Positions 1,823 through 43,826 of a DNA stretch of 64,000 nucleotides are shown piece after piece. Under the pieces are notes generated by a model. The model made no database searches and was not told the origin of the DNA. It worked only from the letters and a program-made list of their open reading frames with translations. Both the position numbers and the translations under genes were made by a program. This stretch comes from a virus. Position 1 is the stretch's first letter, and each line of letters begins with the position of its first letter. The stretch covers positions 1,483-65,482 of the IMG/VR virus record IMGVR_UViG_3300001200_000012; one strand, given 5' to 3'.

Positions 1823-3351
1823 CACTTCTTCTCCTTTGGTTTCTTCTTGTTATCGTCCGGCTTCGGTTTTTCTTCCGGCTTGTTCGGGTCTGGTTTATTG
1901 TCCCCTGGTTTCGGTTCAGGGTCGTTAGGGTCCGGCTTTGGTCTAGCGCCTGATAACAATTCACCTGTTATTGGGTCAACCTTACCTGTTAGAGATAGCG
2001 CCGGGTCAGTCCAGTCTTCTTCCTCACGCTCCGGCGGGGTAAGACCTAGCATGTTGAAGAACTCTTCAACTAACTTATCGTGGCCGCGTAAGTCAACTCC
2101 AGACGCAGAGATGTCCCGGAGAATGCCAGCTAGCACTTCGGCAGAGCGGTTGCTAATCTCCTCAACCTTGAGTTTAGGCTTCAGCTCATCGTCCCAACCA
2201 TTCAAGCGCCATATAGGTCCAAGCCATTGCTTTTCAAAGTCTTCGGCTAAGTCCTGAAGGACCGCGTTGACGTTGAGAAGGAAATTGTCTGTCTTGTCTT
2301 TAGACAGAGCCAGCGAACCGGACCCGTCAGTGCCCGTCAGGAGATGGTCCACGCCCATAGCAATAGCTATCTCCCGGACAACGCGCTGAATAGCCTTGGC
2401 GACTTCGCCTGTTGATGTCGTGGCGGCAGTAAGCAGTTCCAGGTCCCACTTTTTTGAACTGCCGCCAACAGTTCCCGTCTCACCCTTCGCAAAGTAGGGG
2501 GAACTATCTAAGAGAACCGCTGTTGAACGGTTCCGCATATGACTGGTCATGAACTTCTTAATTGAAGCCAGCATCTTCTCCGTGGTTCCTTTCGGAAGGG
2601 TTCCGGCGTCTTCTGCTGCTTGTGTCTCTGTAATCGGCGCGCGCCCAATCGGAATGCCTCGCAGGTCAGTCTGATAGCCCAACAGCTCAAGGTCTTGGAA
2701 CTCGCGCAAGCGGTCACAAAGCTCAACGATGGACCTGAATATGCCCTGCCCTTCGGGGCTATCGGTTACGCTATCATCAACACTGTAAATGATTTTCTTC
2801 ATCGGCAAATAAGCCTCTGATGAATCCTGTGGAATGCGTTGAACGACACCTTCCAATATACCGTACTTGTTCCGGTCCCACCGCTCAATAGTCGATTGAG
2901 GACGCTGTTCAACAGTTGCCATTCCGATAGTGCCGTCATCCCGGCGTTTGGCAATCCACTCTTGAATAGCGAAGCCGTGAAACTTATACATGCCTTGACG
3001 TCGGACTACCCGGTGCCACGGTGTATCCATATCACGCATCATCTCCTCAACCAGCTCTGCCTTTTCTTCCTGCTCCGGGGTAGCGTCTTCAGGCGGTTCA
3101 ACGGTCCACTTAGCCTTAGACAGCATATTCATGAAGTGTCTTAGACCTGCGGCGACAATCGCAATATTCGCAATATTCTCGTTGTAGGTTGTGAACTTGC
3201 GGCGTTCGACAAGCTTAGGGTTCTTCTCTCGCTCTTCAACGAAGCCGGAGAAGATGACTGTCTGCGGACCGCCTACATGCTTTGTAGGTGCTGCTGACTT
3301 AGTACCAACAAACGTTGTAACGCTGTTAATCAATCGGGTGCGAAGGCTCAT
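1822..3351 (-). CDS. portal protein
   Basis: 509 aa directly after terL; portal-like motifs (GMYKFHGFAIQEW, SPEGQGIFR, GSGSLALSKDKTD). Confidence 0.85.
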   Translation of the reverse strand: MSLRTRLINSVTTFVGTKSAAPTKHVGGPQTVIFSGFVEEREKNPKLVERRKFTTYNENIANIAIVAAGLRHFMNMLSKAKWTVEPPEDATPEQEEKAELVEEMMRDMDTPWHRVVRRQGMYKFHGFAIQEWIAKRRDDGTIGMATVEQRPQSTIERWDRNKYGILEGVVQRIPQDSSEAYLPMKKIIYSVDDSVTDSPEGQGIFRSIVELCDRLREFQDLELLGYQTDLRGIPIGRAPITETQAAEDAGTLPKGTTEKMLASIKKFMTSHMRNRSTAVLLDSSPYFAKGETGTVGGSSKKWDLELLTAATTSTGEVAKAIQRVVREIAIAMGVDHLLTGTDGSGSLALSKDKTDNFLLNVNAVLQDLAEDFEKQWLGPIWRLNGWDDELKPKLKVEEISNRSAEVLAGILRDISASGVDLRGHDKLVEEFFNMLGLTPPEREEEDWTDPALSLTGKVDPITGELLSGARPKPDPNDPEPKPGDNKPDPNKPEEKPKPDDNKKKPKEKK

Positions 3352-5603: not shown

Positions 5604-5833
5604 GCTGTTAATCCTCTGACTGCCCACATAGAGGCTTCTTCAAGTTTCGTGATTGCTATAGAGCGCTCACGGCTAGGGGGAAGGCTATCAAGTAGCTTGC
5701 CGAAGTCATGCGTGGCGTCCTTGACTGCTGACACTTGTTGCTTTTCTTCGTCTGATAAGGCACGATATTGATGCCTGCCGTAGTTGTTAGAGGTTCGTTC
5801 ATCCTCTGTTGCTGATACTTTATCATCACTCAT
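5600..5833 (-). CDS. Acb2/Tad1-like helical hairpin protein (candidate cyclic-nucleotide sponge)
   Basis: YRALSDEE resembles the Acb2 N-terminus; SRERSIAITKLEEASMW resembles the Tad1 C-terminal helix. Confidence 0.6.
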   Translation of the reverse strand: MSDDKVSATEDERTSNNYGRHQYRALSDEEKQQVSAVKDATHDFGKLLDSLPPSRERSIAITKLEEASMWAVRGLTA

Positions 5834-6627
5834 GATTTAGGCTCCTGTTCTATGATTTGAGCGTCTTCAACATCGTCTTCTGGCGTGATGTCCTTAGCCA
5901 TGTCCGCGCTAATCACTTCGCGAATTTCTGTAAGCAGTCCCCGGACCTTGTTCCGTCCTTCTTGACTCAGCTTATCTAAATTGATTTGACTTGTCTCGCT
6001 CTTAGCCTTCTGTTCTGCGTGATAGTTCTGACGAAACTCTTCTGGACTAAGAGATTCAGCGAGCATCTTCAATAGACCGTCTGACTTCTTGTTGACGTAG
6101 CCTACAACACGTCCTTTATGAAACTTCGGTTCTGGTTGGCCTACAACGGCGCGGTTAACAACCTCATCATAGACCTTCTCCTTGAACGCTATCCTTGCTT
6201 GGTCCCAAGCAGCTTGTACTTCAGGGTCACGCTCACAGAACTCATCGAACGTAATAGGATGAAAACCAACCATCTTAGCAGCACGTCCCTTAGTGCCGAA
6301 CATCTCAAACAACTCGCAGACCCGGAAAGCGTCTTCACGCGTCATCTTCTTCTTACTGGGTTCCATATAACCCGGTCCGACAATGACCTCGCATAATCGT
6401 TTATCAATCATAGCGATGTTGGTAGCTCTGCCGGAGCGATAAAGCTCTTCACGAAACGCCTCAAATGTTTCTTCGTCTAAAGCAAGTGACGTATGAAACT
6501 GGCGCGCGAGAATATCAATCCACTCTGCTTGAGGCTGCGGGAGCTTGGACCAATCGGACGTAGGGTTATAGGCAGAGAGTGACTGACCCATCTTTGGTTT
6601 ATGTTGATGTGGTTTAGGTGTCGGCAT
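5830..6627 (-). CDS. terS: terminase small subunit
   Basis: HTH region then RAVVGQPEPKFHKGRVVGYVNKKSDGLLKML typical of TerS; upstream of terL; start placed at MPTPK. Confidence 0.75.
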   Translation of the reverse strand: MPTPKPHQHKPKMGQSLSAYNPTSDWSKLPQPQAEWIDILARQFHTSLALDEETFEAFREELYRSGRATNIAMIDKRLCEVIVGPGYMEPSKKKMTREDAFRVCELFEMFGTKGRAAKMVGFHPITFDEFCERDPEVQAAWDQARIAFKEKVYDEVVNRAVVGQPEPKFHKGRVVGYVNKKSDGLLKMLAESLSPEEFRQNYHAEQKAKSETSQINLDKLSQEGRNKVRGLLTEIREVISADMAKDITPEDDVEDAQIIEQEPKS

Positions 6628-6764
6628 ATTTTCTTTGATAATTTGCAAAATCAAAAAAGTAAAGCTTGACCTACTGTTTAGCGTTTTACTGACAGGGGGG
6701 TCTAGGGTGTGGCTGCGTGCGCAATAGCCCAAAACAGGGGCGCTCCCCTACCACAAATGTGCGT

Positions 6765-7002
6765 CCACATAAGTAACACAAGTAATTTACTTACGTGACC
6801 ACAAACCAAAAACCCTTATAAAACAACCAGATACTTATGTTACTTATGTTACTTATGTAAAAAAGAAGGAGTAAGGAAAACGGGGCATTTACCTAAGAAC
6901 TAGAAAACCATACAAGTACACAAGAGCATAAGTAAGTCCTTGTTTCTTTGGGATAACCACATGAACCACCACATAAGTAACACAAGTAATTTTACTTACG
7001 TG
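6765..7002. repeat. 9-mer repeat element A (11 copies of a TTACTTRYG-type 9-mer in both orientations, bounded by a ~33 bp direct repeat)
   Basis: ccacataagtaacacaagtaatt(t)tacttacgtg at 6765 and 6969; internal tandem atacttatg-ttacttatg-ttacttatg; homologous to 43231..43462. Confidence 0.9.
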
Positions 7003-7047
7003 GGCAAAAGCTCTAAAGTCAAGAACTTAAGCAACTCTTATCGTTTA

Positions 7048-7260
7048 TCAATGTAAAACGCGGGGACGCCAATGAGTAGGACCAGCTCCCCGTGACGCGT
7101 CCCAAGTGAAACTCTCATCAGGCGCTACCCAACAACCAGGTCCGATGAACCTGGTAACAAAATCAGGGTCCCAGTACATTAAGAACTCTCCGGCTTCAGC
7201 AGCAGTGACCCATACCAAAGTCTTATCTTTCGGAGCTGTTTTTATATCTCTCCAATTCAC
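7048..7260 (-). CDS. small phage protein (WRDIKTAPKD family)
   Basis: WRDIKTAPKD...PTHW pattern common in small phage proteins. Confidence 0.7.
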   Translation of the reverse strand: MNWRDIKTAPKDKTLVWVTAAEAGEFLMYWDPDFVTRFIGPGCWVAPDESFTWDASRGAGPTHWRPRVLH

Positions 7261-7394
7261 TTCTTACTAGCCTCCATCAGCAGCTCTTCAGCGCGTTTCC
7301 GGCGCTTCTTTGATTCTTCTTTATCGCCCCACTCAAGATATTTGAGAGCATCGCAAAGATAGGCTACCGCCCTCAATAGTTTATCCTCATCCAA
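7257..7394 (-). CDS. hypothetical 45 aa protein (not in the ORF track)
   Basis: TTG start with GGAG SD; fills the gap; stop overlaps the next start. Confidence 0.5.
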   Translation of the reverse strand: MDEDKLLRAVAYLCDALKYLEWGDKEESKKRRKRAEELLMEASKK

Positions 7395-7641
7395 GGCCGT
7401 TCTCCTTATCGAATATCCAAGCCGCGATAGCATCCCACTCGTTCATCATAGCGTCCCAAAGCTCTCTCGCGTTCGGACCGCCCCACTCGCCGGAGCGCCG
7501 CCATTCCCGGTCTAAGCGCCTTAGTTCTTTCTTTTGTTCTCGCCCCGCGAGCGGCCAGTGCTTTCCGCATATGAACTTCGCCCAGGGCTTACGGCTCCGG
7601 CCACGACAACCAAACACCCCGCACTCCGTTCCTTTGCTCAT
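7387..7641 (-). CDS. hypothetical protein with Cys/His zinc-finger-like N-terminus
   Basis: CGVFGC...CGKHW; start at the ATGA overlap with the upstream gene. Confidence 0.6.
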   Translation of the reverse strand: MSKGTECGVFGCRGRSRKPWAKFICGKHWPLAGREQKKELRRLDREWRRSGEWGGPNARELWDAMMNEWDAIAAWIFDKENGLG

Positions 7642-7925
7642 ACCAATCCTAAAGCGTCTCGCAGCGCGCTCCTTTTCGTAACAGAACAGGAGAGCTTGCG
7701 CCCGGACATATTCTTGAAAGTCGCATCCCCCATCCACTCCAACCAGAGCTGTGCTGCTCCCGCTGTCGCGAAGCGAAGTGGGAGCACGCTAAACTTCCGA
7801 TAGCAACGCCAATTCTTACGCGCAGAAGTCCGGGAGAACCCCCGGCGCTCTAAACGCTTCGCCATCTCCGGGTTAAATGGAGCGCGTTGTTGGTAAACAA
7901 TCAGCCAATCCCTACTCATGAACAT
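7638..7925 (-). CDS. hypothetical protein
   Basis: Tiles in the minus-strand operon. Confidence 0.55.
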   Translation of the reverse strand: MFMSRDWLIVYQQRAPFNPEMAKRLERRGFSRTSARKNWRCYRKFSVLPLRFATAGAAQLWLEWMGDATFKNMSGRKLSCSVTKRSALRDALGLV

Positions 7926-8256
7926 ACTTCCCGTTCAAGTGGTCCACCATACTCTTCAGCTCCCCGTATCTCTGACGCCTATGATGCATATCCCGCGCAG
8001 CATCATCTGTTACTCGTACAATGAGCTTCACGCCTCGCAACTTCATGATATTATCGTCAATCGACATCCACTCAATTGTTCTCTGTCCGTTAGAAGCGCG
8101 CAAAGCTTGTCCGTCCGTGAACCATCTCGCAGAATGACTTCGCATATGTTCCTTGAAATCATACTCAGCTTCATTCCTAGACCTACAAACAATCATAGTG
8201 GAATTAACTTCTTCCCGGCGCATCATAGCACGCGTGTTTCGTCTTCCAGCACTCAA
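7912..8256 (-). CDS. hypothetical protein
   Basis: Tiles in the minus-strand operon. Confidence 0.6.
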   Translation of the reverse strand: MSAGRRNTRAMMRREEVNSTMIVCRSRNEAEYDFKEHMRSHSARWFTDGQALRASNGQRTIEWMSIDDNIMKLRGVKLIVRVTDDAARDMHHRRQRYGELKSMVDHLNGKYVHE

Positions 8257-8531
8257 TTTGTATATTCCTTATCAACAGTTGTAAATCCGTTATCTTCAAG
8301 CAATGTTCGGAGCGCCGCCACGCATGGGTCGCATAGGTCTTCTAGCTTCCAGCCCCTCCAATCCTGAAAATCGGGATAGTTATCTCCAGCCATAAACTCT
8401 AATTCAAAGTCAACTGACTCATACATCTTTTCATCAGGTATCTCGCACCCGCACTTGTCGCAGTTCGCGCCTATCTCCCGTTGTTCAACTTTAGCAGGCA
8501 CCTCAACGTCTTTATACCGCTTAACCATCAA
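8253..8531 (-). CDS. hypothetical protein with two CxxC pairs
   Basis: CDKCG...LCDPC zinc-ribbon pattern. Confidence 0.65.
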   Translation of the reverse strand: MMVKRYKDVEVPAKVEQREIGANCDKCGCEIPDEKMYESVDFELEFMAGDNYPDFQDWRGWKLEDLCDPCVAALRTLLEDNGFTTVDKEYTN

Positions 8532-8805
8532 ACAACTCCACGTCCAATTCTATTTCGGTCTTCACCTTCCCGATACATTCCCGGTTCCTCATAACATGAG
8601 AGCCGTAACGCCCGGACGAAACAACATGACCATCTATATTCAACCCAAGCAGGCAATGCGTACCGCCGCCGGGAGACATGGCAACAAGCACCCAATACTT
8701 CGTACCCCCGCCGTGACCCCTGTATAGGTTCCCAATCTCCGGCTCCGATGGTCTGTTGGGCTTATCCTCTGGGACGTTAAACCTCATACTTACCCTCGTA
8801 CACAT
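8521..8805 (-). CDS. hypothetical protein
   Basis: Tiles in the operon; true start may be slightly downstream. Confidence 0.55.
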   Translation of the reverse strand: MCTRVSMRFNVPEDKPNRPSEPEIGNLYRGHGGGTKYWVLVAMSPGGGTHCLLGLNIDGHVVSSGRYGSHVMRNRECIGKVKTEIELDVELFDG

Positions 8806-9046
8806 GCCACACCAAGCCCCCGGCGTAAAGCACGGTGCCTAAGAAACGTTTTTCAGTCCCGTCCAGCGGGTGACCTGTTCCCCGGATATAGAACTGTCTG
8901 GGCTGCTTAGACAACGCTGTATCAACCTCTGCCCAAACAACTATCTTGTTGCCTTGGACGCCAACGCTTAAAACATTCGCCTTGAACGGCATCTCAATAA
9001 CGGGATCATCAGTCAGCTCCAGCTCATATTTATATATTGTCTTCAT
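8777..9046 (-). CDS. conserved phage hypothetical protein
   Basis: MKTIYKYEL...GTGH...FLGTV...LVWHVYE pattern widespread in phages. Confidence 0.7.
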   Translation of the reverse strand: MKTIYKYELELTDDPVIEMPFKANVLSVGVQGNKIVVWAEVDTALSKQPRQFYIRGTGHPLDGTEKRFLGTVLYAGGLVWHVYEGKYEV

Positions 9047-9246
9047 TCTTCTTCCTCTGTTTCAATTATCTCGCCCTCAAGGAACGTTGTTTTGACTCCG
9101 CAGTCCGTACCATCACAGGTATGGACCATCTCTATGTTCCAGTGTGCAATAATATAGACCGACAAGCCGTGAAGCTTACCACAGATACACTTCCAAAGCT
9201 CCCCGGCTTCTATATGGTCCCCCACTTGTCTTACATGCTTACTCAC
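9043..9246 (-). CDS. hypothetical zinc-finger-like protein
   Basis: CICG...HTCDGTDCG. Confidence 0.55.
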   Translation of the reverse strand: MSKHVRQVGDHIEAGELWKCICGKLHGLSVYIIAHWNIEMVHTCDGTDCGVKTTFLEGEIIETEEEE

Positions 9247-9664
9247 CCCAAGCCCCTTCCGTATAGGATATACTTACCCGGTCAAGCCCATACACGGCAA
9301 TGCCGCTTATCTTTCTCCGGCTCGCAGGTTCATTGATAACATCATCAAGCCTAACGCCCTTAGCGGCCAAATCATCCGCAGCATTAAAGTCTAACGGGTC
9401 GCCTTTCCACTTGTATGACCGCTTGGGAAGTTCGCCGCGCAAACACTGCTCTTTTAAATCATACACCCACCATGAATCATAACTCCAAGAGTTACGCATA
9501 CCATTATTGACTTGATGTCTTTGAACGAAACGTAACCAGACCCAACCACCAACTTGTAGCTTAACAGGACGCCAAGCAAACCATCTTTCAGTTCTGCTTA
9601 AAAGCGTTCGACTAAATACGTGTGGACGTTCGCTCATGCCTTCGCCTTCCTCATTGCGCCCCAA
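9239..9664 (-). CDS. hypothetical protein
   Basis: RWFAWRPVK...WVWLR motif seen in small phage proteins. Confidence 0.6.
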   Translation of the reverse strand: MGRNEEGEGMSERPHVFSRTLLSRTERWFAWRPVKLQVGGWVWLRFVQRHQVNNGMRNSWSYDSWWVYDLKEQCLRGELPKRSYKWKGDPLDFNAADDLAAKGVRLDDVINEPASRRKISGIAVYGLDRVSISYTEGAWGE

Positions 9665-10014
9665 TACGTTAACCGGGTCACGGTCCCGCCATCAGCGCGT
9701 TCGTAACTCCAACCAAGGCGCTCGCGCTTCACGTGCGCAATCAGGTTCCCCGGCTCATCCTTATAGATGTAGCAAATCTCTTGACCGTGACGCGAATAGC
9801 GATAGCCAGCGTGAGGGTCCAGGCGCTTCTTGAGCATCCGGCGCGCGGTCCGCTTCGCCATCCATTCGAACGGCTCCCACTCGCTCCGCTCTAGGGTCTT
9901 GCCGTCTGTATTACGAACGAATATCTGCCAACCCCAACGCTTCGAAGGCATCCACTCAGCATGAATATTACATTGCTTCGTATCAACACAGTAACCGTCT
10001 CTTGTCTCTATCAT
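9634..10014 (-). CDS. hypothetical protein
   Basis: Preceded by the GAGAAAAGGAG SD motif at 10021. Confidence 0.7.
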   Translation of the reverse strand: MIETRDGYCVDTKQCNIHAEWMPSKRWGWQIFVRNTDGKTLERSEWEPFEWMAKRTARRMLKKRLDPHAGYRYSRHGQEICYIYKDEPGNLIAHVKRERLGWSYERADGGTVTRLTYWGAMRKAKA

Positions 10015-10065
10015 AACAATCTCCTTTTCTCAAAACAACAATACTCGTTAATTGTTTCTAAGTCA

Positions 10066-10350
10066 TTAATGTCTTTTAGTTACTATAAATTCCCACTCCA
10101 GACCTTCCGGCGGGGCTTCGTTTACCCACCTGAAAAAGTCTCCGTCTTCCTTCGGTCCAGACCACTTCATGCGTTGGAAGCGTCCTTTGCCCCATGTCGG
10201 TTGAGCCGCCTTCTTATAGGGCACCCATTTATAGGTATGACCCCCGGCGCGGAACTTCTGCCCTGTTGTTGGGTAATCACTCACTTCACTATCGCTCCAA
10301 TAATCAAGACCCAAAAGGCGAGCGAGCAGAACACCGCCGCAATCCAACAT
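10066..10350 (-). CDS. hypothetical protein
   Basis: Minus-strand ORF in the early region; start uncertain. Confidence 0.5.
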   Translation of the reverse strand: MLDCGGVLLARLLGLDYWSDSEVSDYPTTGQKFRAGGHTYKWVPYKKAAQPTWGKGRFQRMKWSGPKEDGDFFRWVNEAPPEGLEWEFIVTKRH

Positions 10351-10376
10351 TTGCCTCTGTAGCTAATCTTTCTCAT

Positions 10377-10583
10377 TTAAAACTCCTCAGACGCAGCAAA
10401 TTGTAGCCGCACTAAACGGTCCCGCGTAAACTTCAATAATGTAGCATCCATATTCCCAACGCGCTTCAAGCGTTTCTCCCGGCGTTCAGCCTTAGCTTGT
10501 AGCTCGTCAATGAGGGCTATTGCTTCAGCGAATGTGGGTGGATATTTTTTAAGGTTCCTCATGACTTCTCCTCTGGGAAACAA
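10377..10583 (-). CDS. hypothetical protein
   Basis: Tiles in the operon; start probably MRNLKK at 10562. Confidence 0.55.
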   Translation of the reverse strand: MFPRGEVMRNLKKYPPTFAEAIALIDELQAKAERREKRLKRVGNMDATLLKFTRDRLVRLQFAASEEF

Positions 10584-10828
10584 CCCAACAACGCTCTAAT
10601 CACTAACCGCCAAACATTATAAGATAGCCGGGGGTAGTCTCTCACGTCAGCTTCTCTCAACGGCTTGTCGTTTATTCTATTCCAATCTCCAGACACGGCA
10701 TCAGTCTTCCGTCCAACCTTGGCTTCATAGTTTCCTCGCTTCGCGGTCCCACCAACATTGCTTATAGTCATAGCTCCAAGGCGCTCAACGCCCCGCTTCG
10801 ATACTAAGTCAACACGAACGATAATCAT
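10559..10828 (-). CDS. conserved phage hypothetical protein
   Basis: MIIVRVDL...ISNVGGT...GNY...YPRLSYNVWRLV pattern. Confidence 0.65.
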   Translation of the reverse strand: MIIVRVDLVSKRGVERLGAMTISNVGGTAKRGNYEAKVGRKTDAVSGDWNRINDKPLREADVRDYPRLSYNVWRLVIRALLGCFPEEKS

Positions 10829-11070
10829 GCCGCCATCTCCACTGCTCTATATTGAGAGCCGGAACCGCCTACACTGACTGAATACTCACTAAGGTCGCGC
10901 CAGAACGCCAAGCGTTTTTCAACACGTTCTTCCGGCAGCTCTGTTTCTAACCAATCCCACTCAGTCCACTGCTGCTCTGATTTAGCCATACAGCCGTTAT
11001 AGACGCGCCGTTGCGGGTCAGTTAAGACAGTCACTCGTTTACGGGTCTCAATTTTAAATAGTTTAGTCAT
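10825..11070 (-). CDS. hypothetical protein
   Basis: ATGA overlaps with both neighbours. Confidence 0.6.
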   Translation of the reverse strand: MTKLFKIETRKRVTVLTDPQRRVYNGCMAKSEQQWTEWDWLETELPEERVEKRLAFWRDLSEYSVSVGGSGSQYRAVEMAA

Positions 11071-11282
11071 CTCATCACTCCCGCCATAATTGCCGCCATA
11101 GTTACGAAGCTTTCGCGTTGTCTCAATATTGCCCTACGTTGCGGCGTTCGTTTCTTGGGCGTCTGCACTCTATTCTGCCAAGACATAAAGACCTTCGCTG
11201 CTTCACGCCTTGACTTAGCCCTACGTTCGCACGCGTGACGTTTCGCCATCCGGCTTCTGAATTGTTTAGTTGCTTTTCGCAT
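11067..11282 (-). CDS. basic hypothetical protein
   Basis: Arg/Lys-rich; start shortened to avoid a long overlap with 11266..11613. Confidence 0.45.
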   Translation of the reverse strand: MRKATKQFRSRMAKRHACERRAKSRREAAKVFMSWQNRVQTPKKRTPQRRAILRQRESFVTMAAIMAGVMR

Positions 11283-11613: not shown

Positions 11614-11622
11614 CCCAACCCC

Positions 11623-13010: not shown

Positions 13011-13029
13011 TACAGTTCTCCTTTTCTCA

Positions 13030-13065: not shown

Positions 13066-13072
13066 CGTTAGT

Positions 13073-20081: not shown

Positions 20082-22442
20082 CTAAAAAGGTGATTCACTA
20101 TCATCGTCTATTGTTTCAACCTGCGGCGGCGCGTTCCAATCGGTCTTCGTCCCAAATGTCTTGTCCCATATCTTGCGACAATCCTCAAGAGACGGGAACA
20201 GATAAACGTATGGCCTGACGTTCTTCTCTCGCGTCATTCCCGTTGCTGGGTCTTGCTCCTCAATCGTCATAGCGATTTGCTTGCTTTGTAATCCTGGGAT
20301 TGAACCCCGAAGGAATTTGCCCAAAGCAGGGGGTGATGCGCGGTGGAAGTACCTTTGGGCATCACAGAACGCTATATAATCCTTAAAGACTGCCTTGGTA
20401 GTGACGTTCCGTTCCCACTCATCGAATTTATCAATCTGGGTCCCTTCAACAAGGCGAGAATACCACCATGTTTGCTCCGGCGATAGGCTCAACATTTTTT
20501 GGTCGCCCAGGGCTTCGGTCTTCGGAACGTCCCGGACGTTGAAGTTGGATATGTCTAACGTCATGAGGTAATGAAGCAATGCCTCATAGCCGCCGCTCTC
20601 CATTTCCTTTTTCACAGAGCTGAAGTAAGCCGTGTTCTGCATCTTCTCATTAGATACATCCAATACAAAATAGCGTCTTTCTTCCTGGTTAGCCGGAACA
20701 ACCCAATCGGAGTTAGACGCCATCAAGATGTGAGTGAAGTTCGGACCCGGCGCGGCGTCCACGCCCTTCCGTTCAACCATCAACATACTCTCTGTTACGA
20801 GCGCCTTCAGTACGCCTTCGTGAGCCTTGTCTCCGGCGAAGAACGCCTCATCAGCAAACAGTACAATACAATCACGCAAGTGGTAATTGAATTGACCGAC
20901 AAGATGCTTGGAGTTGGAAACTTGAAGGAAGTGTCGCCCCCAAAGCTTACCGAAGGCGTTGATGAACGTACCTTTACCCGTCCCCTGCTTTCCGCGAAGT
21001 ACAACAGCAACCTCACCTTGGGTAGCTGGTTTTTGGACGCAACGCGCGAGCCACTGTATTAAGTAATTGTAATACTCTTCATTGCCGTTACATATAATTG
21101 TTTTGAGGTGGTTGAGGAACTTCTCACACTTCCCTGGCAATGGTTGGAAGTTAAATCCTTGCCAGAGGTTGTAGCTGTTATCAATCTCCCGGTTCGGAGC
21201 GAATATGATGTTGTCGTATTGACGCCGGAGCGGATGCTTCAACCACCACTTCCCGGCGGGTTCGTATATTGGACGCCCATCCTTGTCAGAGCCAATCTCA
21301 ACCTTTTGATTCATATAGCGGTTTCTGAAGTCTTCGAAGGTCTGCATTGATATACGCGAACGCTCCAACACTTCATCGTACACTTCAGAGATAACGCGAC
21401 ACTTGCCACCTATATCAGAGATGACAGCGAACTTTTCATTCAAAAGACGCAACCAGGGTTCCTCAACTTCTTCCTTGGCACGCTGTATTTGACGCGCAGC
21501 ATAGTTCCGGGACCGCTTCTGCTTCCGGGTATGCTCACTGATACCAAAGTCAGGGTCTAAGATAATTGACGCAATCGTATCATCATCCACGCCAGCGCGA
21601 ATAAGCATACAACAGACGCCAAAGACAGCTTCTGACTTGCTGGAATATCTTGTTGGGTCTTCCGGGTCATCCCCTTGAACTATAATCGCCTTCAATCGAA
21701 GGTTGACACCTTCGGGCAGGTCTTCTAAGTCAACAGGCGCGAGATTGCCCGACAACTCAACTTTAGCGCTACCGCCGGGTGTATCTTTCGTTTGGATACG
21801 TGGCGCACAAACGAACGAAGCAAGCGGGTGTACAGCTTCTTCTTCCCAGACAGTCTCTGCAAGGATGGTTGTCCGCTCCGGGTTCTTCTTCAGCTTCTTC
21901 TCACCGGGAATATTGTATGTGCCGGGGAGACGCATAATGCGGTCCAGGTTGTGGCAGTTATCGCCCCCGGTCTGTTGGGCCACCTGTATGTTGTAACCTT
22001 CCAGCTCTTCAATAGCGCCTAAGTCCCCGCCCACGAAGACAGGAGCATCCAAGCGCCAAAAAGCTTGATAGCCGCCGCCGGAGAATATAACACAAGACGG
22101 ACGCGGCTTGAAGTCTTCAAGGGTCTTCAATATCCGGGTCTGTTCGTCCGCGAACTTCTCACCCTTAGCCGGGTCCACGTCAACGTGAAGCCAAGCCATC
22201 TCTTCAACGTCTGTCTTCTTCGCCTTGCTTTTAATTTCGGACCGAGGCGGGTTGACCATAAAGTAAAGGTTGTTTTTACCGTTATGTTTATCAATCCATT
22301 CGCACATAGCCTTTTCGGTCTTTGGTTCAAAATACGCGGTCCAGGTCTTCCCCCCATCCGGCGGGATAGCGGTCAGGACCCAAGGACCTTTCGGCGCGAA
22401 GTAGCGAAGGAAGCGGCGTGCTGTTTTTGTTTCGTCTTTCAT
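20082..22442 (-). CDS. primase-helicase (RepB-like primase plus SF3/NrS-1-type helicase)
   Basis: WLHVDVDP, FSGGGYQAFW, RIMRLPGTYN; Walker A GKQGTGKG; LFADEA. Confidence 0.9.
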   Translation of the reverse strand: MKDETKTARRFLRYFAPKGPWVLTAIPPDGGKTWTAYFEPKTEKAMCEWIDKHNGKNNLYFMVNPPRSEIKSKAKKTDVEEMAWLHVDVDPAKGEKFADEQTRILKTLEDFKPRPSCVIFSGGGYQAFWRLDAPVFVGGDLGAIEELEGYNIQVAQQTGGDNCHNLDRIMRLPGTYNIPGEKKLKKNPERTTILAETVWEEEAVHPLASFVCAPRIQTKDTPGGSAKVELSGNLAPVDLEDLPEGVNLRLKAIIVQGDDPEDPTRYSSKSEAVFGVCCMLIRAGVDDDTIASIILDPDFGISEHTRKQKRSRNYAARQIQRAKEEVEEPWLRLLNEKFAVISDIGGKCRVISEVYDEVLERSRISMQTFEDFRNRYMNQKVEIGSDKDGRPIYEPAGKWWLKHPLRRQYDNIIFAPNREIDNSYNLWQGFNFQPLPGKCEKFLNHLKTIICNGNEEYYNYLIQWLARCVQKPATQGEVAVVLRGKQGTGKGTFINAFGKLWGRHFLQVSNSKHLVGQFNYHLRDCIVLFADEAFFAGDKAHEGVLKALVTESMLMVERKGVDAAPGPNFTHILMASNSDWVVPANQEERRYFVLDVSNEKMQNTAYFSSVKKEMESGGYEALLHYLMTLDISNFNVRDVPKTEALGDQKMLSLSPEQTWWYSRLVEGTQIDKFDEWERNVTTKAVFKDYIAFCDAQRYFHRASPPALGKFLRGSIPGLQSKQIAMTIEEQDPATGMTREKNVRPYVYLFPSLEDCRKIWDKTFGTKTDWNAPPQVETIDDDSESPF

Positions 22443-34277: not shown

Positions 34278-35116
34278 AACAAAGCCTCTCCATGACGTTC
34301 CCGGCCTTGCTCATTCCACCAGTTGATAGCTTTCATATCGTAGTAGTGATTGGCAGGAAAAGGTAAATCAATGATGTTCTTAGATTTGTCTTTGTAGTTG
34401 TAACCTTCATCAATCAGGCTTATAGCGTCACCCCGAAGACCTTTGACCCCGTGTTGAACGCTGATGTATTTCTGAATGGCGTCCCGGCTCCGGGAGTAAC
34501 CCATATGGAGTAGGAATTGCGGCAGGGTCTTTACAGACGCGCCTTGTGACTCATAGAACTGTGCGAAGCCGCGAATTACTCCGGCGGCGATTGTAGCAGA
34601 GCTGACAGAGATAAGAACGGGGCGAGATATTAAATCAGTCACAGCGCCTTCAAGCGTCACCATAACTTCCTTGGCAGTCTCCTCAACCATCTCCGGGAGC
34701 TTCAGCGCATTGGGCATCATGTAATGAGTCCCTTCAGCGTGATTCTCTCTCAAGTGTTTCTTAGCACCGTGATATAGTACGGCAGAACGTCCGGCGGGAA
34801 GCCCAACCAGTTTAGCGCCTAATGCAAGCGAAAATTCTTGCGGCTCTCTATATCCCGGTTCATATTTATACTCCGGGTAATAGTTGACGCATTGCTTGCC
34901 TAGAAGGTGACAGGCGGCAGCTACGGCTTGACCGCCTTGGCTGTGGTATGTATCCAACACGCCGATAATCTTTTCAGAACGCTTCTCAATATGAGCGTAC
35001 ACGCCCCGCGTCTTACTGAACGGGGGACCCGGCGGTGGGCATGAAAGGTCTTCTCGCTTGACCAGTAAGCCAAGCGAGCTAAGATGATTTTCAACGGGAG
35101 TGTTATGTCGCAGCAC
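34262..35116 (-). CDS. PLP-dependent enzyme, fold type II (candidate decarboxylase of the modified base)
   Basis: TPVE...VKREDL...FSKTRG; SVSSATIAAG; YDMKA. Confidence 0.8.
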   Translation of the reverse strand: MLRHNTPVENHLSSLGLLVKREDLSCPPPGPPFSKTRGVYAHIEKRSEKIIGVLDTYHSQGGQAVAAACHLLGKQCVNYYPEYKYEPGYREPQEFSLALGAKLVGLPAGRSAVLYHGAKKHLRENHAEGTHYMMPNALKLPEMVEETAKEVMVTLEGAVTDLISRPVLISVSSATIAAGVIRGFAQFYESQGASVKTLPQFLLHMGYSRSRDAIQKYISVQHGVKGLRGDAISLIDEGYNYKDKSKNIIDLPFPANHYYDMKAINWWNEQGRERHGEALLWLIG

Positions 35117-35792
35117 GATGGTCTTCCGCTTCGATTAACATGATGTGAGTGCCGTTGAACTTTAAGCCGTAACCCTTCTGGGAGACGAAAAGATAATTCA
35201 ACTGGGACCACATATTTGAAGGCGTCCACTTCACGTTTGCGTTCGGTGAGAATGCGTTAGTGTCTTCACAGAACTTCTCTGCCGTTACACCAACGAGATT
35301 TCCTGAACGGGTCCGCGTCAATAGCTTCATCATCTTCTCCTGAAGGGAGTTTTTGCGGGGAGCGTAAGATGTCTTCCCCGGCGCGGTGTACTTCTCACGC
35401 CGCCAGCGTTCTTTCGGAACGGGCTTGCCTGCTACAACGGGAGACGGACGAACGCCGCTTTGTTGTTTAGGCTTCTTTGCATTCTTTCCGACAACCGTGA
35501 CGTTAATTTTCTCGCCGCCTTCTTGAAGGCCGGAAAGGTTAACACACATGCTATCGAACCGCTTAAAAGCTGCGGCCTTTGTCGCGAACCTATTGACTGT
35601 TTTAAATAGTTCCGGTTCTTGTTCAGCAACGACATTCCACGCCGCTACTAATTCAGACGCCGCGAAGTGTTCCGCGTTAGAAGCGTCAATAACTACGCCG
35701 TTATTCTCGTTCGCAAAATTAACGGCTGATAACATATCGTGCGCGAACACGACACTAAGTGACGCAGCTGCGCCTATAAGAATTGCTTTCAT
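35103..35792 (-). CDS. hypothetical (possibly DNA-binding) protein
   Basis: Strong SD and upstream promoter; basic central region. Confidence 0.65.
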   Translation of the reverse strand: MKAILIGAAASLSVVFAHDMLSAVNFANENNGVVIDASNAEHFAASELVAAWNVVAEQEPELFKTVNRFATKAAAFKRFDSMCVNLSGLQEGGEKINVTVVGKNAKKPKQQSGVRPSPVVAGKPVPKERWRREKYTAPGKTSYAPRKNSLQEKMMKLLTRTRSGNLVGVTAEKFCEDTNAFSPNANVKWTPSNMWSQLNYLFVSQKGYGLKFNGTHIMLIEAEDHRAAT

Positions 35793-41225: not shown

Positions 41226-41573
41226 CTAACTATCGTTTGGTAAATCTAAATCTAGTGATACAAGCTTATAACCTTTGATTGTCCTATCCCACTGAAGAAA
41301 ATTCATTTGAGATGTATGCTCTGCCCAAAACAGGACGGTCAGCGCCAACACAATCGGGTTCCCGGTCAAGATGAGATAATCACCTGGCTGGGGTTGAAGT
41401 TCGTTGATACGTTCCTCAAGTTCCTTTGCTACAATTTCGGGAGCTGTTGTTATATTAACATTGGACGTCATTATCTCAACCAGTTCGCCGTAGCGCTCTG
41501 CCGGGGTGAAGTCCATGTATTGCCGTCCACCGTAAGATGTCGGCTTGCTTGCTATGAAAACTTTGTTAGCCAT
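41226..41573 (-). CDS. conserved hypothetical protein (small alpha/beta fold)
   Basis: GDYLILTGNP motif; coupled to the helicase. Confidence 0.65.
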   Translation of the reverse strand: MANKVFIASKPTSYGGRQYMDFTPAERYGELVEIMTSNVNITTAPEIVAKELEERINELQPQPGDYLILTGNPIVLALTVLFWAEHTSQMNFLQWDRTIKGYKLVSLDLDLPNDS

Positions 41574-43015
41574 TCTTTTATCTCATCACCTAATACTGTG
41601 TTGGCCACTTCCCGTTTCGCTCGTAAAGCGTTCAGAATATAACCGTCAATTGTATTCTCCGCAATCAAGTCCGTATAGATCACTGATTGGTTTTGTCCTA
41701 TACGGTGGTTGCGGTCTTCGCTTTGAAGCCTGTGCGTTAAATTAAAGCTGTTGCTATAATAGAACGTTGACTTGGCTTCGATTATCGTCAAGCCTTCTCC
41801 GGCAGCAGCTGGGTTCGCTATAAAGTCATCAGCGTCCCCGTTCTTCATCGCGTCCAGAGCTTCGCCGCGCGCTGTTTCGCTAGTCCGTCCGTCATACGTC
41901 ACGGGTCTTCGTCCAGCCATGCGGCTCGCTTCGGCTGCGGCGTCTATATCATATTGAAACCTAGCCCAAACAATAGAAGGGTGCGGCAGGTCAGACAAAT
42001 GCTCCTTCAACAGATTCACGCGCGGGTTCTTCTTCAGAGGGACGATTGGAACAACCTTATCATCAACCGAAACAAAGCCAGACGTTATCTGTTGAAGCCG
42101 AAGCAATCTAACGATAGCCATTTCAGCCGTTATCAATTCGCCGCTATCTAGCAGCATCATGAATTCATCCTTAACGCTTCGGTAGTGCTGCTTCTGTGCG
42201 TGCGTTAATTCTAGGTTGGAGACAGAGTAGAGCTTTTCAGGAAGGTCCAAAACGTCTTCCTTCAATATCCGGTCCGATATTTTCTTCAATACTTCATTCA
42301 ACTGGTCCAGGTTCCGATACGCAACAAGCTTGTTGAACTTCCCCCCGGTCTGTAATTGGACCTGAACGAACTCCGCAAAGTGAGACTTGAAAGCCGCAAA
42401 GCTTCCCAGTCCAAGTTCCCTAATCCAAAATTCAGGGTCAAGGAAACGCACTTGTGAATATACATCGAACGGCGAGTTGGCCACAGGCGTTCCGGTCAAT
42501 AGGCGTCTATAGGGTGCATACACCGAAGACGCTATTGCGGTCCGGGTTCGTTTTGCTCCAGGCGATTTAATTCGCGCGGACTCATCTAAAACATACATGC
42601 GTTCGTGCTTCCGTAAGAAGTCCCAGGCAGCTTTCTTCCCTCGCTTCGTTTGCATAGCGTCATACGATATAGAGAAGACCTTGAAGCCATCATGCTTCTT
42701 GAACTCTGTATAAGCTTTCTGAAACCACTTGGCGTCAGCTTTATCGCTATACCAGCAGAACAATTCCGCTTCCGGCGCGTCATGCGGCCAATGCTTGGGC
42801 ATCTCCTCAACAATCCAATTACGGTGAACCCCCGGCGGCGCTACAACTAATATACCATCTATGAGCTTCTGGTCAGCGAGTTGAGCTGCCGTATCAATAG
42901 TGGTCTTAGTCTTCCCGGTTCCCTGCTCATGGAAGTGTCCCCACGCAGCAGTGAAGCCATACGTGTCAACACAATGCTTCTGGTGGTCAAACGGTTTTAG
43001 TCTTGGGGTTACCAA
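41552..43015 (-). CDS. SNF2-family SF2 helicase
   Basis: HEQGTGKT, LDESARIK, LLTGTP, GEGLT, QSEDRNHRIGQ; TTG start with SD at 43022. Confidence 0.9.
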   Translation of the reverse strand: MVTPRLKPFDHQKHCVDTYGFTAAWGHFHEQGTGKTKTTIDTAAQLADQKLIDGILVVAPPGVHRNWIVEEMPKHWPHDAPEAELFCWYSDKADAKWFQKAYTEFKKHDGFKVFSISYDAMQTKRGKKAAWDFLRKHERMYVLDESARIKSPGAKRTRTAIASSVYAPYRRLLTGTPVANSPFDVYSQVRFLDPEFWIRELGLGSFAAFKSHFAEFVQVQLQTGGKFNKLVAYRNLDQLNEVLKKISDRILKEDVLDLPEKLYSVSNLELTHAQKQHYRSVKDEFMMLLDSGELITAEMAIVRLLRLQQITSGFVSVDDKVVPIVPLKKNPRVNLLKEHLSDLPHPSIVWARFQYDIDAAAEASRMAGRRPVTYDGRTSETARGEALDAMKNGDADDFIANPAAAGEGLTIIEAKSTFYYSNSFNLTHRLQSEDRNHRIGQNQSVIYTDLIAENTIDGYILNALRAKREVANTVLGDEIKEWLTKFS

Positions 43016-43230
43016 TTGTATCTCCTTTTCTCAACGTGCTATGAGCGGCTTCATTAGCTACCAGCCCCCGTTCTCCGCTACTCGCTTAGACCCGGCAAAA
43101 GGCCGTACACTTCCACAAGATACTGCCATGAAGGCGAAGTGGTGGACTTGAACCACCCAATCTCATATCACGAAACGTATCTAGGGAAAGACGCCCAATA
43201 GGGCAAGGGTCATCTGTTGCTGTGGTTTTG

Positions 43231-43462
43231 CGTAAGTAACATAAGTAATTTACTTACGTGACCAAATTCAAATTATTCCAGAATTTCAATTAGATACTTA
43301 TGTTACTTATGATACTTATATAAAAATAGAGGGAATACATATAAAGGGAGTTTACCTAAGAATATTTTTTCACGTAAGTACACAAGAGCGTAAGTAAGTC
43401 TTTGTTATTTTGGGACTTTTCAATGAATTCACATAAGTAACCACACAAGTAAAATACTTATG
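43231..43462. repeat. 9-mer repeat element B, homologous to element A
   Basis: Same 11 9-mers and blocks (gtgacca, agatacttatg, tttacctaagaa, aagtacacaagagc, taagtaagtc) in the same order as 6765..7002. Confidence 0.9.
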
Positions 43463-43826
43463 GGCCTTCGGGGTCTTGAGACACTTTGATTCCCGCTCCC
43501 AGTCCTTCAACCCAACCAACGAGCTTCGCTTTACCCAAAGCGCATTCATAATACTGCGGTGCCCATCCATTGAGAACAACGCCCATAACGATAGCGGGGT
43601 CTATAACTTCACCGTCAACCGGGACCGGACTATTGGGGAGTGTCGCTGGACACAATTGGAGATATTCCGATGGCGGCTGGGGCAGGGGACGCTCCAACTT
43701 CTCCGGTTCCTCTTGCGGTACTTCGTCCGGGAGCCGCACCCCCATTTGCGATAGGGTTGAACACCCCGACAATAAACTCACGGCTAAAACCATAAGTGCC
43801 ATCAGCAGCACACGTGTTGGGGACAT
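43458..43826 (-). CDS. outer-membrane spanin (Rz1-like lipoprotein)
   Basis: Lipobox LLSGC; Pro-rich; overlaps the i-spanin 3' end. Confidence 0.75.
   Translation of the reverse strand: MSPTRVLLMALMVLAVSLLSGCSTLSQMGVRLPDEVPQEEPEKLERPLPQPPSEYLQLCPATLPNSPVPVDGEVIDPAIVMGVVLNGWAPQYYECALGKAKLVGWVEGLGAGIKVSQDPEGP

What the first reader, a model, noticed from the sequence alone, without database searches (positions are those of the whole stretch)
6765..7002. Twin 9-mer repeat elements with fixed spacing head each half of the genome (copy A; copy B at 43231-43462)
Seen: two ~235 bp non-coding elements in direct orientation about 36.5 kb apart. Each has 11 copies of a TTACTTRYG-type 9-mer in the same order and orientations, plus shared blocks such as tttacctaagaa. 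Spacers are unrelated in sequence but nearly identical in length (27/27, 29/29, 14/13, 16/14 nt). A lies just upstream of terS, the start of the virion module. B lies just upstream of the helicase, the start of the replication module, and contains the o-spanin stop codon. Inference: conserved geometry without conserved spacer sequence points to a phased nucleoprotein complex. Options are paired replication origins, pac or ejection signals, centromere-like sites or module-level transcription switches. I know of no described phage system with this twin architecture.
Basis: partly seen in the sequence, partly recalled or inferred. Interest (0 to 1): 0.85.

Follow-up and report, generated by a model that had tools for sequence, protein, structure and literature searches.

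The report
Twin box arrays heading phage operons
This phage has two matching non-coding regions of about 235 bp, one before its packaging and virion genes and one before its replication genes; related phages, including YuA, Pam3 and RHph_I65, keep the same pair but with their own 9-base word, so the regions are docking arrays for a phage protein that controls transcription, DNA replication or both.

Summary
All 16 exact TTACTTRYG sites in the window lie in element A (6765-7002) or element B (43228-43464), against 2 expected by chance.

Each element has 12 boxes in four triplets. The spacings are almost the same in A and B: 35/35, 31/30, 9/9 and 36/34 nt. Boxes are 88% identical between copies and spacers 64%, so the spacers are diverged rather than unrelated.

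A and B are the two largest gaps in a 69.6-kb genome whose genes all lie on one strand.

The pair is conserved. I found it in metagenomic relatives R1 and R4, Rhizobium phage RHph_I65, cyanophage Pam3 (225 bp, 91.6% identical) and Pseudomonas phage YuA. Each carries its own box variant. One relative (R2) lacks the array before the helicase.

In YuA, the only two sigma-70 promoters found by promoter trap lie inside the two elements. In RHph_I65, Pam3 and YuA the elements hold the two easiest-to-melt stretches of the genome. In this phage B ranks first and A fourth.

My best reading (0.45) is two operon-head control regions: a promoter embedded in an operator array for a phage protein. The best candidate binder is a winged-helix protein (35103-35792).

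The main rival (0.35) is a pair of SPP1-type replication origins.

This scan has already noted similar twin elements in other phage families.

The parts
6765..7002 (-). Element A: a 12-box array in the 316-420 bp gap between the stop of ORF 7048-7260 and terS.
6768..6795 (-). A, triplet nearest terS (module IV in gene direction): CATAAGTAA CACAAGTAA t TTACTTACG.
   Evidence: It is 93% identical to its counterpart in B.
6831..6857 (-). A, three abutting direct 9-mers (module III). With their flank they are among the least stable DNA in the genome.
6889..6900 (-). A, shared block: TTCTTAGGTAAA on the gene strand. It lies four 9-bp periods (36 bp) from the far box of module II, i.e. in phase. It matches the family box CTTAGGT and the annotated -35 (TTAGGT) of both YuA promoters.
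6910..6935 (-). A, triplet of degenerate boxes (module II).
6972..7000 (-). A, distal triplet (module I).
6736..6749 (-). GC hairpin AGGGGAGCGCCCCT followed by GTTTTG, between array A and terS. It could be an attenuator or part of the proximal promoter. Its role is unresolved.
   Evidence: Read. The terminator scan did not call it.
43228..43464 (-). Element B: a 12-box array between the stop of ORF 43458-43826 (inside the last box) and the SNF2 helicase.
43231..43258 (-). B, triplet nearest the helicase (module IV).
43294..43320 (-). B, three abutting direct 9-mers (module III). This is the centre of the least stable 40-bp and 80-bp windows of the whole genome.
43351..43362 (-). B, shared block TTCTTAGGTAAA on the gene strand.
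43372..43397 (-). B, module II triplet.
43432..43462 (-). B, distal triplet (module I). It contains the stop codon of the upstream ORF.
43179..43207 (-). Proximal promoter-like site CTTGCC-N17-CTAGAT downstream of array B. It has the same form as the phage's CTTGAC-TTATCCCCG-type promoters.
   Evidence: This is a sequence match only.
5830..6627 (-). terS, the first gene after A. The start codon is uncertain: ATG at 6627 or 6591, or TTG at 6732.
41552..43015 (-). SNF2-family helicase, the first gene after B.
35103..35792 (-). Best candidate box reader: a 229-aa protein with a C-terminal DUF3489-type winged-helix domain. It is transcribed from a TTATCCCCG-type promoter.
20082..22442 (-). Second candidate box reader: the SF3 (DUF5906/VapE-like) primase-helicase. 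Its last ~150 residues are the most divergent part.

Best explanation
Each element is the control region at the head of one of the phage's two long, same-direction gene blocks. Block 1 is packaging, virion and lysis genes. Block 2 is replication, nucleotide-metabolism and small genes.

Each region combines three things:
- host-type (sigma-70) promoter activity;
- a phased array of 12 nine-base boxes in four triplets;
- the easiest-to-melt DNA of the genome.

A single phage-encoded sequence-specific DNA-binding protein occupies the boxes. My best candidate is the winged-helix protein at 35103-35792. The inverted triplets on either side of the promoter and AT-rich core let bound protein bridge or wrap about 235 bp of DNA. 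Because both copies carry the same array, the same protein switches both transcription units together as it accumulates. The most likely effect is shutting off or re-timing the host-RNAP promoters.

What is shown:
- the arrays, their matched geometry and their statistical significance;
- conservation of the pair in five relatives, with lineage-specific boxes;
- annotated promoter-trap activity in both homologous YuA regions;
- extreme duplex instability.

What is inferred:
- that a protein binds the boxes, and which protein it is;
- looping or wrapping of the DNA;
- the direction of regulation;
- where the promoter lies in this phage's own elements.

The same complex may also serve as a replication origin (see the first rival explanation). 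The two roles do not exclude each other.
For: **Position**
- A and B are the two largest gaps, and each lies directly before the first gene of a module.
- Relatives RHph_I65 and R4 have strong terminator hairpins just upstream of the terS-side copy, so a new promoter is needed there.

**Promoters**
- The YuA record annotates its only two promoter-trap-positive sigma-70 promoters at 489-568 and 33014-33160 ("medium activity (1000 MU)"). Both lie inside the two homologous elements, and the annotated -35 (TTAGGT) is on a family box.
- This phage keeps TTCTTAGGTAAA at the same place in both copies.
- B also has CTTGCC-N17-CTAGAT just upstream of the helicase leader.

**Protein-site behaviour**
- Boxes are 88% identical between copies and spacers 64%, with spacer lengths kept.
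- Box words by lineage: TTACTTRYG here; TWACTCGAC in R1; GCTTACCTT in R4; TCTTAGG/TCTTAAC in RHph_I65 and Pam3; CTTAAC/CTTACC/CTTAGG in YuA. The triplet layout stays the same.
- The family box CTTANNTT is concentrated in the elements: 16 of 21 in RHph_I65, 5 of 8 in Pam3 and 10 of 13 in YuA.

**Replacement in R2**
- Relative R2 lacks the helicase-side array. It has an 86-bp gap with a plain TTGTCG-17-TAAATT site, as if one promoter region had replaced another.

**Candidate reader**
- The winged-helix protein is present at the same place in all seven phages examined.
- Its C-terminal domain folds with pLDDT of about 80-87 in a helix-strand-helix-helix-hairpin topology.
- It is among the most diverged orthologues between this phage and R1: 35%, against a typical 55-77%.
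- Its third helix follows box class, not phylogeny. YuA groups with RHph_I65 and Pam3, while this phage, R3 and R1 each differ.
Against: - No promoter could be placed with confidence inside this phage's own arrays. Element A has no good -35, and the consensus scans are at chance level.
- It is odd for a replication block and a virion block to share one control design, because phages usually time these blocks differently.
- Twelve sites around the genome's least stable DNA is more than most operators need and looks like an origin.
- The YuA evidence comes from a distant relative (about 46-50% protein identity). I read it from a GenBank annotation; the paper itself was not held.
- The fold search for the candidate binder gave no significant match (best E about 1).
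- The helix-versus-box correlation rests on seven phages.
Confidence: 0.45

Rival explanations
1. The elements are a pair of replication origins of the iteron plus unwinding-element type. An initiator binds the triplets, melts the AT-rich core between inverted triplets and loads the replisome. The initiator would be the C-terminal domain of the phage's own SF3 primase-helicase, as in P4 alpha or SaPI Rep, or the winged-helix protein acting as an organiser like SPP1 gp38. The embedded host promoter fires through the core and activates or primes the origin, as at T7 and T4 origins. The second copy is either a second origin or a fork-stalling site, as proposed for SPP1 oriR.
For: - There are 12 direct and inverted boxes in about 235 bp.
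- The elements hold the least stable DNA genome-wide. They rank first and second in RHph_I65, Pam3 and YuA. In this phage B ranks first and A fourth.
- R1 has about 45 bp of pure A/T next to the triple boxes, and YuA has microsatellites there.
- In YuA the annotated promoters lie upstream of, and point into, that core.
- The design is identical whichever genes follow.
- The phage encodes a DUF5906/VapE-type primase-helicase. Its last ~150 residues are 32-46% identical to R1, against 56-88% for the rest.
- None of the proteins I scanned matched another initiator family. I scanned about 40 of roughly 96 ORFs.
- R2's loss of one copy fits redundancy.
- Precedent: SPP1 oriL and oriR have a similar organisation and are bound by one protein (PMC6316719).
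Against: - There is no sign change or consistent inflection of GC skew at either element in four genomes. Single-strand coding may mask such a signal.
- The putative recognition stretch of the primase C-terminal domain (SPxALGKFLxR) is nearly unchanged between phages with very different boxes.
- In R4 the spacer between the inverted triplets is not AT-rich.
- Both copies always sit exactly at operon heads. A promoter function explains that without further assumptions.
- There are no replication data for any family member.
Confidence: 0.35
2. The elements are packaging signals (pac or cosB-like). The small terminase oligomer binds the repeated boxes, and copy B is a second packaging start or a TerS autoregulation site.
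For: - Copy A is directly upstream of terS, the classic place for pac or cos.
- Arrays of short repeats with fixed spacing resemble SPP1 pacL/pacR and P1 pac (my own knowledge).
- TerS is one of the most diverged orthologues between this phage and R1, at 32%.
Against: - The same twin architecture occurs in phages with two unrelated TerS families: {this phage, R1, R4, YuA} and {Pam3, RHph_I65}.
- The second copy is always next to the helicase, half a genome from terS.
- The shared contig ends in three metagenome assemblies are explained by assembly breaks at the repeat: the abutting contigs overlap by about 39 bp inside the AT-rich part.
Confidence: 0.06
3. The elements act as RNA or single-stranded DNA. 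The inverted triplets would fold into a large nested hairpin in the 5' leader, serving as a processing site, attenuator or antiterminator, or would form a cruciform.
For: - Modules I/IV and II/III can pair.
- The minimum-free-energy folds are -70.3 and -51 kcal/mol, with z-scores of -2.2 and -2.0.
- If the YuA promoters are used, modules III and IV are transcribed.
Against: - The z-scores are modest and are expected from any set of inverted repeats.
- Abutting direct triplets, and R4's all-direct module IV, are not needed for a hairpin.
- There is no Rfam match, even at E of 1 or less.
- Box changes between lineages affect direct and inverted copies alike, so they do not show pairing-specific compensation.
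Confidence: 0.05
4. The elements are module-junction recombination sequences. They would be shared non-coding linkers that promote exchange of the virion and replication halves between co-infecting relatives, with no dedicated binding protein.
For: - The copies lie exactly at the two module boundaries.
- The virion modules differ across the family (the Pam3 myovirus, the YuA siphovirus, two TerS families) while the replication module is conserved.
Against: - Box words differ between lineages, so the linkers would not be homologous between the phages that would need to recombine.
- Stronger conservation of boxes than spacers, with preserved spacer lengths, points to site-specific recognition rather than plain homology.
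Confidence: 0.04

Closest known systems
Bacillus phage SPP1 oriL / oriR bound by gp38 (PMC6316719)
   Same: - Two distant regions in a genome transcribed from one strand.
- The two regions have a similar organisation of repeats plus an AT-rich region.
- One phage protein binds both.
- One copy lies in a non-coding gap among late genes.
   Different: - SPP1 oriL lies inside gene 38, not at an operon head.
- The SPP1 copies are about 13 kb apart, not half a genome.
- SPP1 uses a DnaB-type helicase with a loader, not an SF3 primase-helicase.
- No replication data exist for the present family.
Twin intergenic regions of Pseudomonas phage YuA (NC_010116: 413-839 and 32840-33498), with annotated promoter-trap sigma-70 promoters
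   Same: - They are homologous by position: before the SNF2 helicase and before terS.
- They share the layout: box triplets, a TTAGGT box and a low-stability core.
- The two YuA copies are 67% identical to each other.
   Different: - Different box word (CTTAAC/CTTACC/CTTAGG).
- Microsatellites, (AAG)n or (TATC)n, next to the triple boxes.
- The YuA regions are longer.
- The YuA record annotates them only as promoters, not as a matched pair of arrays.
SaPI ori with Rep, and phage P4 ori/crr with alpha protein (my own knowledge; not checked in papers here)
   Same: - Short lineage-specific iterons in both orientations around an AT-rich stretch.
- They are read by a self-loading primase-helicase.
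- P4 needs two separated iteron regions.
   Different: - Binding by the primase-helicase is untested here.
- The boxes here are 9-mers in abutting triplets.
- The copies are about 33-36 kb apart, each at an operon head.
Multi-site phage operator or switch regions: Mu O1-O3 and its enhancer, phi29 p4/p6 complex, lambda OL/OR (my own knowledge)
   Same: - Many short sites over about 200 bp around early promoters.
- The sites are bridged into a higher-order complex.
- In lambda, two separated site clusters are bound by one protein.
   Different: - Those systems control divergent or lysogeny promoters.
- Here the same array heads two same-direction blocks half a genome apart, in an apparently virulent phage.

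Membership tests
Iteron-type replication origin (SPP1 ori, SaPI ori, P4 ori/crr, plasmid oriV) | A cluster of short direct and/or inverted repeats specific to the replicon. | tested here: met
   There are 12 boxes per element. All 16 exact TTACTTRYG hits are in A or B. Relatives carry lineage-specific words.
Iteron-type replication origin (SPP1 ori, SaPI ori, P4 ori/crr, plasmid oriV) | An adjacent, easily melted AT-rich unwinding element. | tested here: met
   Nearest-neighbour stability scan. In this phage B ranks first; A ranks fourth with 80-bp windows and is outside the top eight with 40-bp windows. The elements rank first and second in RHph_I65, Pam3 and YuA. In R4 the spacer is not AT-rich.
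Iteron-type replication origin (SPP1 ori, SaPI ori, P4 ori/crr, plasmid oriV) | A cognate initiator binds the repeats. | not testable with these tools
   There are candidates only: the primase-helicase C-terminal domain and the winged-helix protein.
Iteron-type replication origin (SPP1 ori, SaPI ori, P4 ori/crr, plasmid oriV) | Replication starts there (marker frequency, autonomous replication, strand-skew switch). | tested here: inconclusive
   Only skew could be tested. There is no sign change at A or B in four genomes. The one feature is a ramp that peaks just upstream of A in this phage.
Operon-head promoter/operator control region | It lies upstream of the first gene of a transcription unit, after the end of the previous unit. 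| tested here: met
   Gene map. Terminator hairpins lie before the terS-side copy in RHph_I65 and R4. This phage shows no clear terminator before either copy.
Operon-head promoter/operator control region | It contains an active promoter. | tested here: inconclusive
   Promoter-trap activity is annotated for both homologous YuA regions. In this phage there is only a sequence match: CTTGCC-N17-CTAGAT below B. Nothing convincing was found for A.
Operon-head promoter/operator control region | Regulator sites overlap or flank the promoter. | tested here: inconclusive
   In YuA the annotated -35 is itself a box and inverted triplets flank the promoter. Binding itself was not testable.
pac / cosB terminase recognition site | It is recognised by the phage's TerS, so the architecture should follow the TerS family. 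| tested here: not met
   Two TerS families with no detectable similarity share the twin architecture.
pac / cosB terminase recognition site | Virion DNA ends or packaging-series starts map to the site. | not testable with these tools
   No read data were available. The recurrent contig ends in R1 assemblies are explained by repeat-induced assembly breaks.
DnaA-box cluster (oriC-like) | 9-mers matching TTATCCACA. | tested here: not met
   TTACTTATG shares 4 of the 9 positions (read directly from the sequence). The DnaA-box-like word in this genome is TTATCCCCG. It lies in promoter spacers elsewhere and not in A or B.
Known structured RNA (Rfam) or tRNA | A match to a covariance model. | tested here: not met
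   No Rfam hit at gathering threshold across the window, and none at E of 1 or less around B. No tRNA was found.
Plasmid or phage partition centromere (parS/parC) | A repeat array together with ParA/ParB- or ParM/ParR-type genes. | not tested
   None of the roughly 40 proteins scanned hit a partition family. Not every ORF was scanned.

The most novel reading that the evidence does not exclude
One phage protein reads both arrays and uses them as combined origin and promoter hubs. On this reading a large, host-diverse phage group (YuA- and Pam3-type phages of Pseudomonas, Rhizobium and cyanobacteria, plus many uncultured relatives) coordinates replication and transcription of its two genome halves through a matched pair of nucleoprotein complexes at the two module junctions.
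Probability: 0.25. Interest if true: 0.7.

Novelty: new variant of a known kind. Interest (0 to 1): 0.5.

Why it matters
- The pair is a conserved hallmark of a widespread phage group, and three members can be grown in the laboratory: YuA, Pam3 and RHph_I65. The question of what the twin arrays do can therefore be tested directly.
- I found no description of the matched-pair architecture or its lineage-specific boxes in the papers I could search or open. The YuA paper itself was not held. Only the promoter activity in YuA is on record.
- If the arrays are origins, they give this group its first mapped origins and a second example of the SPP1 two-origin layout.
- If they are operators, they reveal a single switch acting on both halves of a genome whose genes all face the same way.
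- There is a practical consequence. The repeats break metagenome assemblies of these phages into two half-genome contigs. This happened in four contigs from three samples of relative R1 (the two 3300029924 contigs total 66.9 kb). It biases completeness estimates.
- The box and reader pairs could also serve as orthogonal DNA-binding parts.

Tried and rejected
**Searches that led nowhere**
- DNA similarity search of the terS region against isolated phages: no match.
- Exact-pattern scans for the arrays. The tandem-box pattern gave 118 or more unrelated hits in viral contigs, and the palindromic module gave none.
- The triple-box pattern gave 27 metagenome hits, none related to this phage. No close relative with the same word was found.
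- Scans of viral contigs with the helicase or the primase found no usable relatives.
- The YuA 2008 paper and the supplement of the ONT-cappable-seq paper are not held. I could not read the YuA start-site coordinates.
- The ZC01 paper says nothing on termini.
- Genome records reached through the look-up of encoding contigs cannot be searched whole.

**Ideas rejected or left weak**
- tRNA or tRNA-like gene: the helicase leader contains GGTGGTTCAAGTCCACC, but ARAGORN and Rfam find nothing.
- Physical genome ends at the R1 contig breaks: rejected, because the abutting contigs overlap by about 39 bp inside the repeat.
- DnaA-IV-like protein as box reader: rejected as the leading candidate.
- TerS as reader: rejected as the leading candidate.
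- GC skew as an origin indicator: uninformative.
- Placing -35/-10 hexamers inside this phage's own arrays by eye or with the consensus scanner: no reliable result.
- Fold search for the candidate reader: no significant match.

Full report
**1. The observation**

They align at 78% identity. TTACTTRYG occurs 16 times in the 64-kb window, and every hit is in A (6765-7002) or B (43228-43464). The expectation is 2.07, and no shuffle of 100 reached 16. The looser TACTTRYG gives 23 hits, 20 of them in the elements. The rest of the 69,601-bp genome adds none.

I read each element as four triplets of boxes, 12 in all. The shared block tttacctaagaa lies between triplets 2 and 3, in 9-bp phase with triplet 3. 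The spacers between triplets are 35/35, 31/30, 9/9 and 36/34 nt in A/B. Boxes are 88% identical between the copies and spacers 64%. So the geometry claim holds, but the spacers are diverged homologues, not unrelated sequence.

**2. Context**

All genes lie on the minus strand, and A and B are the two largest intergenic gaps. In the direction of transcription the order is:
- A;
- terS (phrog_4044), terL, portal, virion genes, a 1958-aa protein, lysis genes;
- B;
- SNF2 helicase, Pam3 gp32/33/34-like genes, a Dda-like helicase, class II ribonucleotide reductase, thymidine-modification genes, a DnaA-domain-IV-like protein, DNA polymerase A, an SF3 primase-helicase, a GcrA-like protein, small genes;
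- back to A.

The stop codon of ORF 43458-43826 lies inside the last box of B.

**3. Relatives keep the pair**

*R1.* This relative has terL and helicase about 70% identical to ours. On ENA scaffold_255 it has an element before terS (L172:7100-7450) and one before the helicase (L167:9625-9935). The two align at 74%. The triplet order is the same, but the box is TWACTCGAC, and about 45 bp of pure A/T follows the triple boxes. Four contigs of this virus from three samples end or start inside these elements, and the abutting contigs overlap by about 39 bp. These are repeat-induced assembly breaks, not genome ends.

*R4.* This is a 63.7-kb contig with helicase 52% identical to ours. It has both copies, with GCTTACCTT-type boxes.

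*Isolated phages.*
- Rhizobium phage RHph_I65 has both copies. They share a 44-bp stretch at 98% identity plus boxes TCTTAGG/TCTTAAC.
- In cyanophage Pam3 the two copies are its only internal repeat: 225 bp at 91.6% identity.
- In Pseudomonas phage YuA the two copies are 67% identical.

*Family box.* Read in one register, the family box is CTTA-NN-TT(A). It is concentrated in the elements: 16 of 21 in RHph_I65, 5 of 8 in Pam3 and 10 of 13 in YuA.

*The exception.* In R2 (helicase 72% identical to ours) only 86 bp separate the spanin-like gene from the helicase, and that gap holds a plain sigma-70-like site.

The feature is therefore old and selected, and it behaves like a set of protein-binding sites whose word drifts together with its reader.

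**4. Evidence on function**

(a) *Promoters.* The YuA GenBank record annotates its only two sigma-70 promoters recovered by promoter trap at 489-568 and 33014-33160. Both are described as "medium activity (1000 MU)". Both lie inside the two elements, their -35 (TTAGGT) is on a family box, and they point towards the triple boxes and the genes. A later long-read study confirms sigma-70-like and phage-specific promoters in YuA, but its coordinate tables were not available to me. In our phage the same TTAGGT lies in the conserved block of both copies. B also has CTTGCC-N17-CTAGAT just above the helicase leader. I could not place a convincing promoter in A.

(b) *Terminators.* Terminator hairpins precede the terS-side copy in RHph_I65 and R4.

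(c) *Duplex stability.* With nearest-neighbour energies in 40-bp and 80-bp windows, the elements hold the first- and second-least stable DNA in RHph_I65, Pam3 and YuA. In our genome B ranks first. A ranks fourth with 80-bp windows and is outside the top eight with 40-bp windows. The minimum sits on the triple boxes and their flank.

(d) *GC skew.* There is no sign change at either element in four genomes. Our phage shows a ramp that peaks just upstream of A.

(e) *RNA.* Folding is only modestly better than shuffles (z about -2), and no RNA family matches.

**5. Who reads the boxes?**

A second motif, CTTGAC-TTATCCCCG(G)-N7 followed by a -10, marks internal promoters. It is conserved in our phage, R3 and Pam3, and corresponds to YuA's 28-bp repeats annotated as "putative sigma70 promoter requiring phage-encoded cofactor". 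It stays constant while the twin boxes change, so its likely reader, the DnaA-IV-like protein, is probably not the box reader.

TerS falls into two unrelated families among phages that share the twin layout. That weakens both TerS as reader and the pac reading.

Two candidates remain.

- *The winged-helix protein.* This 229-aa protein lies after the reductase (35103-35792). It has positional homologues in all seven phages examined, and two of them match Pfam DUF3489. Its C-terminal domain is modelled with pLDDT of about 80-87 in a winged-helix topology. Foldseek gives only non-significant hits, mostly winged-helix DNA-binding domains. It is 35% identical between our phage and R1, where typical orthologues are 55-77%. 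Its third helix groups YuA with RHph_I65 and Pam3, which share a box class, although YuA is equidistant by helicase and primase. The helix differs among our phage, R3 and R1, whose boxes also differ.
- *The SF3 primase-helicase.* It is 63% identical to R1 overall but only 32-46% over the last ~150 residues. However, its putative recognition stretch barely changes between phages with different boxes.

With seven phages this comparison gives a lead, not a result.

**6. Reading**

Position, the YuA promoters and R2's replacement by a simple promoter favour an operon-head control region with an operator array. I put this at 0.45.

The number of sites, the extreme instability, the promoter pointing into the core, the SF3 helicase and the identical design before two unrelated gene sets favour a pair of origins like SPP1 oriL/oriR (PMC6316719). 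I put this at 0.35. The two readings can both be true.

The remaining options are minor:
- packaging signal, 0.06;
- RNA or cruciform structure, 0.05;
- module-junction recombination sequence, 0.04.

**7. Novelty**

Repeat arrays at phage origins and operators are well known, and a two-copy layout is described for SPP1. I found no description of this pair, or of its family-wide conservation with lineage-specific boxes, in the Pam3 genome paper, the YuA record or the searchable literature. The YuA paper itself was not held.

Earlier notes of this scan report similar twin elements in Bacteroides phages, 9NA-like phages and the YuA/M6 terS-upstream region. Most were read as twin origins. I used those notes as leads only.

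My classification is a new variant of a known kind, of moderate interest. It can be tested directly in three culturable phages.

Noticed in passing
window 13058, 16438, 35866, 41222 (gene strand); reverse-orientation copies near 20062, 20075, 30893, 63397, 63437: There is a second, separate regulatory word. CTTGAC-TTATCCCCG(G)-N7 followed by a -10 lies upstream of genes that carry a conserved GAGAAAAGGAG ribosome-binding site. It is identical in Pam3 and R3 and corresponds to YuA's 28-bp repeats annotated as promoters needing a phage cofactor. The DnaA-domain-IV-like protein (26058-26420) is the likely reader.
   Followed up: partly
window 43139-43158: The leader of the helicase gene contains GGTGGTTCAAGTCCACC, which looks like a tRNA T-arm. 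ARAGORN and Rfam find no tRNA or known RNA there.
   Followed up: partly
window 7000-15000: The coding-strand GC skew climbs steadily along the replication block to about +0.27 in the small-gene region just upstream of A, then drops to about +0.04 after A. RHph_I65 and Pam3 show a weaker rise. The cause is unknown.
   Followed up: partly
L119/G001, L168, L174, L175 (relative R1): Four contigs from three samples break inside the twin elements. The virus therefore appears as half-genome contigs: in sample 3300029924, two of 31.5 and 35.4 kb. CheckV rates the 31.5-kb half as 47% complete.
   Followed up: yes
L169:3887-3971 (relative R2): The helicase-upstream gap is only 86 bp. It holds AAATTGTC twice plus an inverted copy around a TTGTCG-17-TAAATT site, which may be a different small operator replacing the array.
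   Followed up: no
window 39045-39578: A GIY-YIG/NUMOD3 homing-endonuclease-like gene lies between the Dda-like helicase and the Pam3 gp34-like gene. No counterpart was detected in relatives R1 and R2.
   Followed up: no
window 6560-6735: terS lacks the strong GAGAAAAGGAG ribosome-binding site seen before other operon-leading genes, and its start codon is ambiguous (ATG 6627 or 6591, or TTG 6732). Our TerS is 265-300 aa, against 152-197 aa in relatives.
   Followed up: partly
L176:3067-3075, 3291-3300; L177:4876-4884; L181:16842-16850: In R4 and RHph_I65 the DnaA-box-like word (CGGGGATA, the reverse of TATCCCCG) lies inside the twin elements next to a box triplet. Our phage has no such word in A or B; A has only a degenerate CGGGGCAT on the opposite strand.
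   Followed up: no
L183:21850-22073 and L184:4201-4423 (Pam3): Pam3's twin elements also carry four copies of a second word, GAACTGCA/TGCAGTTC, arranged as long inverted repeats. This may be a second factor's site.
   Followed up: no
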